64,000 nt of DNA. Origin: Rhina ancylostomus (lineage: Eukaryota). Made by a program: the position numbers. The DNA lies in the NCBI GenBank assembly GCA_030265395.1, contig JARFYF010000104.1:79684013-79748012 (forward strand), read 5' to 3'. Positions 24,001 to 27,000 of the stretch are shown piece by piece (position 1 is the first letter of the stretch; every line of letters starts with the position of its first letter).

Positions 24001-27000
24001 GGACACAGCTCAACTCATCACAGAAACCAGCCACATGGGCTGTCTATACTTCCCACTGTCTCGGTAAAGCAGCCAGCATAATCAAAGACCCCACCCACCC
24101 CAGACATTCTCTCTTCTCCCATCAGGTAGAAGATACAAGAGCCTGAAAGCACACACCACCAGGCTCAAGGACAGCTTCTATCCCACTGATACAAGACTAT
24201 CAAACAGTTCCCTTGTATGATAAGATGGACTCTTGACCTCAATCTTGTTATGACCTTGCACCTTATTGTTTACCTGCACTGCACTCTGTAGCTGTGACAC
24301 TTTGCATTCTGTGTTGTTTTACGTTGTACTACCTGAATGCACTGTAACGAATTGATCTGTATTAACAGTATGCAAATTTTTCACTATACCTCAGTACATA
24401 TAATAACAAACCAATTCCAACATAATGGGATTTTTAGCTGTGTACCAGTAATTACACATCTCAGGGATGATTCCAAAATTCAGTTCTACCCAAAACTTAA
24501 AAACAGCACATGTATAAAAAGTTGATGTTAACATAATTGCTAGTGATGTGACTGCATTAGAAATGAGCCCTGAACAATCAATTCACTAGTTTTGATCAGA
24601 TTGAAAATTCAACTTTGTAACAAATCAAAAAAATAGAAGTTTCCCACTTCCCCTCTGAACATTAAAGTTGCTGAAGTTCACAAATTACTCTTAATACAAT
24701 AATCCTGGAACTTAACAGGATTTCATATCAAATTTCAAAACTGTATTCAGTCAAAAGATATTTTGTTGGACCCCATCCTAATGTATAGTCGATTTAATAA
24801 ATCGCAGGTATACACCAAATGGTTTGTAACCGTATTAAATCAATTAACTCAATTAAAACGCCTTATATATTAGGGTTTGCCTCTATTCTACTAACACTGC
24901 TGAACTTTATGTAAACTGACGCTTTCAGTCAGCAACTATAGATTTCTCTCTCTCTCGTTGGCAGAAAACAGACTCTGGACCAGCCGTCATGCACAATTTA
25001 AATCAGGGTAAGTTCACTTTTTTTTGAAAAAAAAGGAAAAAGGCTTTTTTTTTGTAGATAACCCAACGGAAGCGGCGCGATTAACAACTCGCCTCCACTC
25101 AGCAACGCTGTGCCACCGACCACGTAACATCATCGACAAACACAAGAGGAGCCAAGTCCGGCGAGACTCCGTGAAGGAGAAGCGAAACCCCGAGAGAGAC
25201 AAATGTAAGAAACACACAAGTGGCGCCCCGGGTCGTGCCACGGCCACCTCACCCCTCAACCCGGCCCGTCGCCCCCGCATTCACCTCCAAGGTGCTGGTG
25301 GTGCTGACGAAGAGATCCTCGCTCCCCTCCAGCTCCCGAAACTCCGCGTCCTCTTCCTCTCCCTCCAGATCCCCGTCTCCAAACGGAGGAGGCTCCCTCT
25401 CCGCCGCCATCTTCTCTGTCACGACCGCACCGACGAGTCATATGACCCCGCCCCCCGCTCCCGTGAAAGGTTCTATTCAGAATGCGTTGGGAATAAACAT
25501 CCAGCAGCCGGCGGTCCCGGGTCTGGTCCCCACGTGCCGGATTATCAGAGCTGCGCATGGCCTGCTCCAGGTTCCAGCGCAGGTTCCGGGCAAGGCCCAA
25601 ACACTCACCCACTCTTGCCCGTAGCTGTCCTCCAACGAGTTCAAGCTCTGATCTTCCCAATGTGACCGCAGTCCGATGCAGAGAAGCGGATACCAGCCTT
25701 CCTGTGCCATGGTGGTGAAGTAATCCGTGAATCCGGCAAAGGATTGGATAACCCCTNNNNNNNNNNNNNNNNNNNNNNNNNNNNNNNNNNNNNNNNNNNN
25801 NNNNNNNNNNNNNNNNNNNNNNNNNNNNNNNNNNNNNNNNNNNNNNNNNNNNNNNNCTCCGTAGCTCGCCCGGACGTCACGCCGTTCGGTCGTTCGCGCC
25901 GCCGATCCACGTGACGAGTGGATCGTGGTCAGTGAGCAATGCCGGTGGGAGCTTGCAGACCTGCTGTGTGATTGCAACTGCTGTGGTCAGCAATCCAACC
26001 AACAAAACATGTTTGTGCGTAAAGGGAATGTCAACGTGGGTGGATTTTATGTTATTCTTCATTATTCCCAGCAAAGCTGTATTTGCAACGTTTCCAGCGG
26101 GCCAGAGCCAGTCAGACCCCCCATGGGCTGTGGCAAAGTTGGCTTTTCCAGTTGGGTTCGGCTCTGTCTGTAATAATACCACAAGTTTATCTCTAAAACT
26201 ATCCATAGCTCAATAGAGTAACAACCAATGAGAAAGTTATTGACATGAAACGTTAGCTCAACTTTGCACTTTACAAATCCTGCCTGACATGCTGAGTATT
26301 TCCAGCGCATTTTTTAATGTGCATATACAAAGAGCTGCTGATCGCAGCTGTTGCATCCTCTATGTACATATATAAAGAACAAATAAAGACTTGGACCCAA
26401 GGAAATAGAAGTTTTGGAGGGGATGGAGAAGAGGTTCTCCAGGAAGTTGCCTGGGTTGTAGCGTGTGAGCAATAAGAAAAGATTGGACAAACTCAGATTG
26501 CTTTTTTTTTCGGAGCATCAGAAACTGAGGGGTGACCTGATAAATGTATATAAAATTATGAGATTTTTTTCCCAGGATAGAAATGTCAAATACTAGAGGG
26601 CATAAGGTTTAAGGTGAGGGGGCAAGGTTTAAAGAAGATTTCAGAACACAGTGGCAGGTGGTAGAAGCAGATACATTAGCAATGTTTCAGAGGCATTTAG
26701 GCAGACACATAAACAAGCAGGGAATAGAGGGACATGGACCTTATGCAGGCAAATGAGATCAATTTAAACTGACATCATGGACATTGCAGACATGGTGAGC
26801 TAAAAGTCTTGTTCCTGTTCCGTATTTTTCTGTGTTCTATGTTCTCACAAGTTTATTTAACTTTGTTATTATGTTCCCTAAAACGTATAATGTTTCCCAG
26901 TAACATATTCACAGTATCACTAAGGAATGTACCACTAATGCAGAGACTAGATGTTAAAATGTGCATAATCATTAACCAATGCTGCATTATGTACAGAAAA

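What the first reader, a model, noticed from the sequence alone, without database searches (positions are those of the whole stretch)
25466..25856. Orphan gastric proton-pump (ATP4A) exon inside the SNX2 promoter
Seen: a stop-free 146-nt exon (25609-25754, minus) with an AG acceptor, a gtgagt donor and about 140 nt of GC-rich intron-like DNA, ending about 200 nt upstream of the SNX2 ATG. Established: the peptide is the TM7/M7-M8 loop of ATP4A and includes SYGQ, the beta-subunit assembly motif. The intronic flank means a DNA-level copy rather than a retrocopy. No other ATPase exon appears in 64 kb, and promoter-like CpG DNA resumes after the adjacent 100-N gap. Inference: either a real small transposition into a CpG island or a chimeric contig end. 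An artefact is quite plausible, because 'ctcccgt' just before the foreign segment (about 25458-25464) resembles 'ctccgt' right after the gap, and other 100-N gaps here have overlapping flanks.
[Added by the scan's program, not by the reader: the finding's places include an assembly gap (unread letters, written N; its length is only estimated) at 25757 to 25856. Whether the letters on both sides are continuous or in frame is not known: test that first.]
Basis: partly seen in the sequence, partly recalled or inferred. Interest (0 to 1): 0.8.

Follow-up and report, generated by a model that had tools for sequence, protein, structure and literature searches.

The report
Stray proton-pump exon at contig end
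A single, perfectly intact exon of the stomach acid pump gene sits next to the start of an unrelated gene in a very fragmented ray genome draft, and it is most likely an assembly error, not a real insertion.

Summary
A 146-nt minus-strand exon (25609-25754), with an AG before it and GTGAGT after it, encodes 49 residues of the gastric H+/K+-ATPase alpha subunit (ATP4A), including SYGQ. It ends 198 nt upstream of the SNX2 start codon. No other ATPase exon lies in the 64 kb.

Both genes point to one organism, a ray closest to Narcine. This is not contamination from a distant species.

Whether the junction is real cannot be decided with these tools, because no elasmobranch DNA or reads are on hand. 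The circumstances favour an artefact:
- The foreign 291 nt are the last letters of a 2.5-kb contig and abut a 100-N gap, in a draft with 20 gaps in 64 kb.
- The switch follows a C-rich tract, a kind of sequence at which this assembly tends to break.
- The exon shows no decay.
- ATP4A is often fragmentary in other elasmobranch assemblies.
- The piece would sit inside the inferred SNX2 core promoter.

Verdict: probable chimeric contig end or gap-fill error (about 0.72). A real DNA-level ectopic insertion stays possible (about 0.2). Interest is low.

The parts
25609..25754 (-). Complete ATP4A-type exon (146 nt, 49 residues with the g of the acceptor). It covers part of M7 and the M7-M8 ectoloop with SYGQ.
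   Evidence: 47/49 to Hypanus sabinus and Hemitrygon akajei ATP4A, 46/49 to Narcine bancroftii, 37/49 to pig.
25755..25756 (-). 'ag' acceptor dinucleotide. These are the last two letters of the contig before the gap.
25603..25608 (-). 'gtgagt' consensus splice donor right after the Trp codon.
   Evidence: The exon end is the same as in other vertebrates' ATP4A.
25466..25608 (-). Intron-like flank of the exon. GC is 0.59 and CpG o/e 0.71. It has no match to the next ATP4A exon. The far limit at 25466 is only inferred.
   Evidence: The representatives search matched only the exon part of the read-through.
25445..25463 (.). C-rich tract (ACCCCGCCCCCCGCTCCCG on the + strand), the likely switch point between SNX2 DNA and the foreign piece.
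   Evidence: It is one of 10 such tracts in the window. 3 of the 10 lie within 30 nt of a gap edge, though only 3.1% of the window lies within 48 nt of one.
25757..25856 (.). 100-N assembly gap. It hides the other end of the foreign piece.
   Evidence: Not filled or looked up.
25285..25410 (-). SNX2 exon 1, coding part (42 residues).
   Evidence: 42/42 to N. bancroftii sorting nexin-2.
25403..25413 (-). AAGATGGCGGC, a YY1-type motif over the SNX2 ATG.
   Evidence: 1 match, 0.01 expected. A passage in PMC8384218 says the YY1 motif is over-represented just downstream of human start sites.
25857..25960 (.). CpG-island-like DNA beyond the gap (GC 0.66, CpG o/e 1.40), presumably the true SNX2 proximal promoter.
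23215..25756 (.). The contig (2542 nt, between two 100-N gaps) that holds SNX2 exon 1 and, as its last 291 nt, the foreign piece.

Best explanation
The ATP4A exon is genuine DNA of this ray's own atp4a gene, but its place beside SNX2 is an assembly artefact. The SNX2 CpG island is GC- and C-rich, and the short-read contig should have stopped at the C-rich tract 25445-25463. Instead, a chimeric fragment or a gap-filling or graph step added about 291 nt from the GC-rich atp4a locus, and the rest of the gap stayed as 100 N. The true promoter continues at 25857.

Shown: the exon's identity, its intactness, its position at the very end of a contig, the draft's quality, and the link between C-rich tracts and breaks.

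Inferred: that the join itself is false, and how it arose.

In its native gene the exon encodes the end of M7 and the M7-M8 loop that binds the beta subunit. Here it does nothing.
For: 1. The foreign piece is the terminal 291 nt of a 2542-nt contig and abuts a gap.

2. The draft is poor. It has 20 N runs in 64 kb. Of the ten 100-N gaps, 4 separate contigs that in fact overlap, so joins and gaps here are unreliable.

3. The switch follows a C-rich tract. 3 of the 10 such tracts in the window sit within 30 nt of a gap edge, while 3.1% of the window lies within 48 nt of one. GC-rich DNA is under-covered in Illumina assemblies (passages in PMC7757076).

4. The exon shows no decay. The frame is open, both splice signals are intact, and every residue is one seen in other vertebrates' ATP4A. 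It differs from rays at 2-3 of 49 positions, about as much as SNX2 does: about 14 differences in about 390 residues to Narcine, my count.

5. The piece comes from a GC-rich locus. Exon GC3 is 0.69, against 0.26-0.52 for the nine internal SNX2 exon stretches measured, and flank GC is 0.59. ATP4A is also hard to assemble in elasmobranchs. 6 of the 15 listed cluster members are partial proteins on contigs under 50 kb, and 9 of 15 lie on contigs under 2 Mb.

6. The YY1-type motif on the ATG, together with the motif's usual place just downstream of start sites, puts the SNX2 start site near 25430-25450. The piece would then replace the core promoter from about -20 upstream. That is unlikely to be tolerated in a housekeeping gene (inference).

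7. Position 15 is T only in the window and in Narcine, that is in 1 of the 14 elasmobranch entries that cover the exon. The exon is therefore this lineage's own, not foreign contamination.
Against: There is no N between SNX2 exon 1 and the exon, so the assembler did find a path of letters across the junction.

No read, long-read or sister-genome evidence could be consulted, so the join was never shown to be false.

The flank's CpG o/e (0.71) is island-like, not gene-body-like (window 0.19). Part of 25466-25608 could therefore be native promoter, and the junction is not mapped.

The exon lies in the same orientation as SNX2, which a random artefact gives only half the time.

The C-tract enrichment rests on small numbers (3 of 10).
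Confidence: 0.72

Rival explanations
1. The insert is a real, recent germline insertion. A double-strand break in the SNX2 CpG island was repaired with a stretch of at least 291 nt copied from the atp4a locus (ectopic templated or 'filler' DNA). This left an intact exon with both splice sites, in sense orientation, just upstream of SNX2.
For: The letters run on from SNX2 exon 1 into the exon without an N. The intron flank is kept, so the copy was made from DNA. The exon belongs to this lineage. Inaccurate break repair is reported to give insertions of 10-1000 bp, including short duplications from ectopic donors (passage in the review PMC7407515).
Against: Only one junction is visible, and it is not mapped. 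There is no target-site or microhomology signature. The position is at a contig end beside a gap in a poor draft. A two-copy segment should break a short-read contig at its edge, not 291 nt inside it (inference). It would disrupt the inferred core promoter and add an upstream ATG (accATGg, Met16 of the exon). Such events carrying an undecayed exon are far rarer than chimeric contig ends (prior, from general knowledge).
Confidence: 0.2
2. A transposable element (Helitron- or Pack-type) picked up the atp4a fragment and carried it into the SNX2 promoter. The rest of the element lies in the gap.
For: Gene-fragment capture by such elements is known (recalled). The gap hides whatever lies beyond the exon.
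Against: Nothing in 25411-25960 is repeated anywhere in the window (0 of 21 self-matches touch it). The visible 291 nt show no element ends, and the left junction goes straight into promoter DNA.
Confidence: 0.03
3. The piece is cross-sample contamination: DNA of another ray or shark joined to this species' SNX2 contig.
For: The exon is slightly closer to stingrays (47/49) than to Narcine (46/49).
Against: The difference is one residue. T15 is shared only with Narcine among the 14 elasmobranch entries. SNX2 likewise points to a Narcine relative. It is not mammalian (37/49 to pig).
Confidence: 0.03
4. The piece is a retrocopy, a fragment of a processed pseudogene of ATP4A.
For: None beyond the presence of a lone exon.
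Against: The exon ends in a consensus donor, and what follows is not the next exon. The match starts and stops exactly at the exon limits.
Confidence: 0.01

Closest known systems
Native ATP4A exon encoding M7 and the M7-M8 loop (pig gastric H+/K+-ATPase residues 868-916; N. bancroftii XP_069768936.1 residues 859-907)
   Same: Same length, same limits, the same SYGQEW end, 46-47 of 49 residues identical to rays, and intact splice signals.
   Different: It stands alone. None of the other ATP4A exons is within 64 kb. It lies in another gene's CpG island.
Chimeric contig ends or gap-filling errors in short-read draft assemblies
   Same: Foreign DNA of read or fragment size at the very end of a contig, next to a gap, in GC-rich, low-complexity sequence, within a draft whose other gaps are demonstrably wrong.
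   Different: Not proven here. No reads or second assembly could be checked.
Ectopic templated ('filler DNA') insertions from double-strand-break repair
   Same: The size range of 10-1000 bp, a non-tandem donor, and a DNA-level copy with intron.
   Different: No second junction, no microhomology and no donor comparison are available.
Processed pseudogene or retrocopy
   Same: A gene fragment far from its parent gene.
   Different: It keeps the intron donor, matches one exon only, and shows no poly-A.

Membership tests
ATP4A (gastric H+/K+-ATPase alpha) exon | Scores better to ATP4A than to ATP1A or ATP12A paralogues | tested here: met
   79.6 bits against 52.6 (ATP1A4), about 46 (ATP1A1) and 45.9 (ATP12A). 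The best database cluster is elasmobranch ATP4A.
ATP4A (gastric H+/K+-ATPase alpha) exon | SYGQ alpha/beta assembly motif in the M7-M8 loop | tested here: met
   SYGQEW ends the exon. The motif's role comes from passages in PMC9609216 and PMC11168508.
ATP4A (gastric H+/K+-ATPase alpha) exon | Canonical exon limits with AG and GT | tested here: met
   Other vertebrates' read-through or mis-spliced proteins leave ATP4A sequence before G1 (P0015, P0032, P0011, P0013, P0014, P0024) and after W49 (P0005, P0023, P0011, P0013, P0014, P0024). ag and gtgagt are present.
Functional ATP4A gene at this locus | The other exons are nearby | tested here: not met
   With four full-length queries, there is no other hit better than E 0.65 in 64 kb.
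Retrocopy | Intronless junction to neighbouring exons | tested here: not met
   The donor gtgagt is kept and the next exon is absent.
Assembly artefact (chimeric contig end) | Foreign segment at a contig end next to a gap | tested here: met
   It is the last 291 nt of contig 23215-25756.
Assembly artefact (chimeric contig end) | Junction at sequence where this assembly tends to fail | tested here: inconclusive
   There is a C-rich tract at 25445-25463. 3 of 10 such tracts adjoin gaps, against 3.1% of the window lying within 48 nt of a gap edge. The numbers are small.
Assembly artefact (chimeric contig end) | No reads span the junction, or the native locus lacks or duplicates the exon | not testable with these tools
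   No reads and no elasmobranch DNA collection are on hand. ORF searches across the junction and through the intron flank found nothing of this species.
Ectopic templated insertion | Both junctions defined, with a donor copy retained elsewhere | not testable with these tools
   One junction lies in the 100-N gap, and the donor locus is not available.
CpG-island promoter of SNX2 | GC above 0.5 and CpG o/e above 0.6 around exon 1 | tested here: met
   All eleven 200-nt windows starting from 25051 to 25551 pass. The flanks have o/e 1.13-1.40, against 0.19 for the window.

The most novel reading that the evidence does not exclude
The junction is real. In an electric-ray lineage, a break in the SNX2 CpG island was mended with a copy of at least 291 nt from the atp4a gene. 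This placed an undecayed exon with both splice sites, in sense orientation, about 55 nt upstream of the SNX2 5' end region. That would be a caught-in-the-act case of DNA-level exon shuffling. It could add a new 5' exon or an upstream reading frame (from Met16 of the exon) to a housekeeping gene.
Probability: 0.2. Interest if true: 0.4.

Novelty: not a real feature. Interest (0 to 1): 0.14.

Why it matters
If it is an artefact, it matters only as a warning. A gene annotator could call a bogus SNX2-ATP4A chimera here. The species' true atp4a model may lack this exon, which could be misread as partial gene loss in a group where stomach-gene loss is discussed.

If it is real, it would be a rare, dated example of an intact exon moved by DNA repair into a promoter. 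That is raw material for exon shuffling, but it is a single event of a known kind with no shown function.

Tried and rejected
1. I searched for independent DNA of the same junction through predicted-ORF collections. The 213-residue + strand ORF across the junction had 1920 word candidates and none at E <= 0.001. The 92-residue exon-plus-read-through gave 582 hits at E <= 0.001, and in the 150 listed the matches lie in the exon part. Of the 8 fetched, none follows the window's sequence beyond the exon. So neither this species' native locus nor the junction is visible there.

2. The 'ctcccgt/ctccgt' overlap has a chance probability of about 0.58, so I rejected it as evidence.

3. I looked for a repeat or transposable-element origin. 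No self-match touches 25411-25960.

4. Pfam on the 49 residues gave no family, because the piece is too short.

5. I looked for a possible next exon behind an 'aatag' at 25473-25477. Its translation (NLSRER...) is not ATP4A, so I rejected it.

6. My one search used the wrong frame for SNX2 exon 1. It was corrected.

Exons were searched one by one.

Full report
**What is there.** On the minus strand the letters read: N-gap, 'ag' (25756-25755), an open 146-nt exon (25754-25609), then 'gtgagt' (25608-25603). With the g of the acceptor, the exon translates to 49 residues, [49 protein letters not shown]. After the donor come about 143 nt of GC-rich DNA, a C-rich tract (25445-25463) and then the SNX2 start codon at 25410. 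SNX2 exon 1 (25410-25285) encodes MAAEREPPPFGDG...TSTLE.

**Identity of the exon.**
- phmmer against all PDB chains matched 36 distinct sequences at E <= 1. The top twelve are gastric H+/K+-ATPase alpha chain 1 (for example 5ylu_A, residues 868-916 of 1034) at 79.4-79.6 bits and E about 6e-22, with 37 of 49 residues identical.
- The next classes are ATP1A4 (52.6 bits), ATP1A1 (about 46) and ATP12A (45.9). It is therefore ATP4A and not a sodium-pump paralogue.
- Pfam gives nothing for so short a piece.
- In the large protein set (33 hits among 34 candidates), the best cluster is elasmobranch ATP4A. It has 26 members, of which 15 are listed.
- An ungapped comparison with all 47 fetched proteins gave 47/49 to Hypanus sabinus and Hemitrygon akajei and 46/49 to Narcine bancroftii, Cetorhinus, Rhincodon and Stegostoma. 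None is 49/49.
- The SYGQ motif is the alpha/beta assembly motif in the fourth extracellular loop (passages read in PMC9609216 and PMC11168508). That this loop is M7-M8 is my own reckoning from ten membrane spans.

**It is a whole, canonical exon.** In one search, proteins from other vertebrates that read through or mis-splice this exon leave ATP4A sequence exactly before G1 and exactly after W49. P0015 (Ranitomeya), P0032 (Crotalus) and the unnamed P0011, P0013, P0014 and P0024 do so before G1. P0005 (Hucho), P0023 (Scophthalmus) and the same unnamed four do so after W49. The limits in the window are the same, and both splice signals are intact.

**It stands alone.** tblastn of four full-length ATP4A proteins (P0047, P0004, P0037, P0040) against the window gave one real hit each, this exon (E 2e-25 to 7e-24). 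Every other hit had E >= 0.65. The next exon (TYWQRRYQQY...) does not follow the donor, so the copy was made from DNA and not from spliced RNA.

**The gap.** This test was asked for first.
- The exon begins 2 nt from the 100-N run.
- Nothing beyond the gap encodes the preceding ATP4A exon.
- The gap edges share only 'CT'.
- Continuity and frame across the gap therefore cannot be claimed and are not needed for the exon.

**Whose DNA.**
- SNX2 exon 1 is 42/42 identical to N. bancroftii sorting nexin-2 (P0051). It is 73% identical to Callorhinchus.
- The other SNX2 exons lie at 21357-2443 on the minus strand.
- Leaving out alignment ends that run into introns, I count about 14 differences in about 390 residues to Narcine. 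The window is therefore a ray close to N. bancroftii but not the same as it.
- The ATP4A exon agrees. Among the 14 elasmobranch entries that cover it, T at position 15 occurs only in Narcine and in the window.
- The exon thus belongs to this lineage. It is not mammalian or distant contamination, and the window is not human.

**State of the assembly.**
- The window has 20 N runs. Ten are exactly 100 N and the rest range from 6 to 628 N.
- Four of the ten 100-N gaps separate contigs that overlap: 23059-23114 against 23215-23270 (56 nt at 96.4% identity), and exact overlaps of 8, 6 and 9 nt.
- The finding lies on a 2542-nt contig (23215-25756), and the foreign piece is its last 291 nt.

**Composition.**
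- CpG o/e is 0.19 for the window, with a median of 0.14 in 200-nt windows.
- It is 1.13-1.35 on the SNX2 side, 1.40 beyond the gap, 0.71 in the intron-like flank and 0.66 in the exon.
- Exon GC3 is 0.69, against 0.26-0.52 in the nine internal SNX2 exon stretches measured.
- The piece therefore comes from a GC-rich locus. The flank's fairly high CpG content means that part of it could be native promoter, so the junction is not mapped exactly.

**The junction.**
Such a match, exact or with one added base, occurs in 58% of 5000 random 400-nt stretches of like composition.
- The C-rich tract is more telling. The window has 10 tracts with at least 14 of 18 letters C or G. Three of them lie within 30 nt of a gap edge, although only 3.1% of the window lies within 48 nt of one. 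The tract at 25445-25463 is one of the ten and sits just where SNX2 DNA gives way.
- GC-rich DNA is known to be under-covered and poorly assembled from Illumina data (passages in PMC7757076).

**Promoter context.**
- AAGATGGCGGC covers the SNX2 ATG (1 match, 0.01 expected).
- A passage in PMC8384218 reports the YY1 motif as over-represented just downstream of human start sites.
- By inference, the SNX2 start site is near 25430-25450. The foreign piece would then begin at about -20, inside the core promoter. The CpG-rich DNA beyond the gap looks like the displaced proximal promoter.

**ATP4A in other assemblies.** Of the 15 listed cluster members, 6 are partial proteins on contigs under 50 kb and 9 lie on contigs under 2 Mb. 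The locus is evidently hard to assemble in this group, so stray pieces are to be expected.

**Attempts to see the junction or the native locus elsewhere failed.**
- The + strand ORF across the junction had no relative.
- The exon-plus-read-through gave 582 hits at E <= 0.001. In the 150 listed the matches lie in the exon part, and of the 8 fetched none follows the window's sequence beyond the exon.
- No elasmobranch DNA or read collection is on hand. The closed collections stayed unchecked. No supplements were needed.

**Verdict.**
- The weight of circumstantial evidence favours a chimeric contig end or gap-fill error (0.72). That evidence is the contig-end position, the poor draft, the failure-prone sequence at the switch, the undecayed exon, the locus that fragments in assemblies, and the disruption of a core promoter.
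- A real ectopic DNA insertion is the main rival (0.2). Repair-mediated insertions of 10-1000 bp from ectopic donors are on record (passage in PMC7407515).
- Transposon capture (0.03), cross-sample contamination (0.03) and a retrocopy (0.01) are unlikely or refuted.
- Read mapping, a BLASTN of the piece against the same assembly, or the orthologous Narcine promoter would settle the question.

Noticed in passing
window 23059-23114 and 23215-23270: The two flanks of the 100-N gap at 23115-23214 are the same 56 nt at 96.4% identity. The gap is spurious: the contig ends overlap but were not merged, perhaps two haplotypes. Gaps at 28537, 37432 and 44964 have exact 8-, 6- and 9-nt overlaps.
   Followed up: partly
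window 42844-43191 (-), 42170-42685 (-), 23507-24067 (+): These are retroelement remains. The ORF at 42844-43191 hits reverse transcriptase RVT_1 (E 4.6e-7). The ORF just downstream of it on that strand has no Pfam hit. The ORF in SNX2 intron 1 weakly hits PF09004 (22.3 bits, cut-off 21), and from recall I take that for a LINE tail, not a gene.
   Followed up: partly
window 2443-25410 (-): SNX2 spans at least 23 kb. Residues 43-55, 80-136 and 455-521 of the Narcine protein found no match. Some of these exons may be hidden in the gaps at 18378-18704, 20509-20608 and 21178-21263, or may lie beyond the window start.
   Followed up: no
window 25403-25413 (-): A YY1-type motif, AAGATGGCGGC, lies exactly over the SNX2 start codon. 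It suggests a very short 5' UTR.
   Followed up: partly
window 36566-36904 / 62174-62505; 44164-44208 / 48687-48731; 62029-62152 / 63270-63354 / 63610-63763: Several interspersed repeat families occur at 67-100% identity, one of them starting right at the gap edge at 63270. They are likely SINE- or LINE-derived. They were not classified.
   Followed up: no
protein P0059 (unnamed representative): An unnamed fish-like ORF carries this same ATP4A exon twice in tandem, each copy followed by the same intron read-through. Duplicated or mis-assembled copies of this exon therefore occur in other assemblies too.
   Followed up: no
elasmobranch ATP4A cluster: In many shark and ray assemblies, including recent ones, ATP4A is partial or sits on small unplaced scaffolds. 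The locus seems generally hard to assemble in this group.
   Followed up: no
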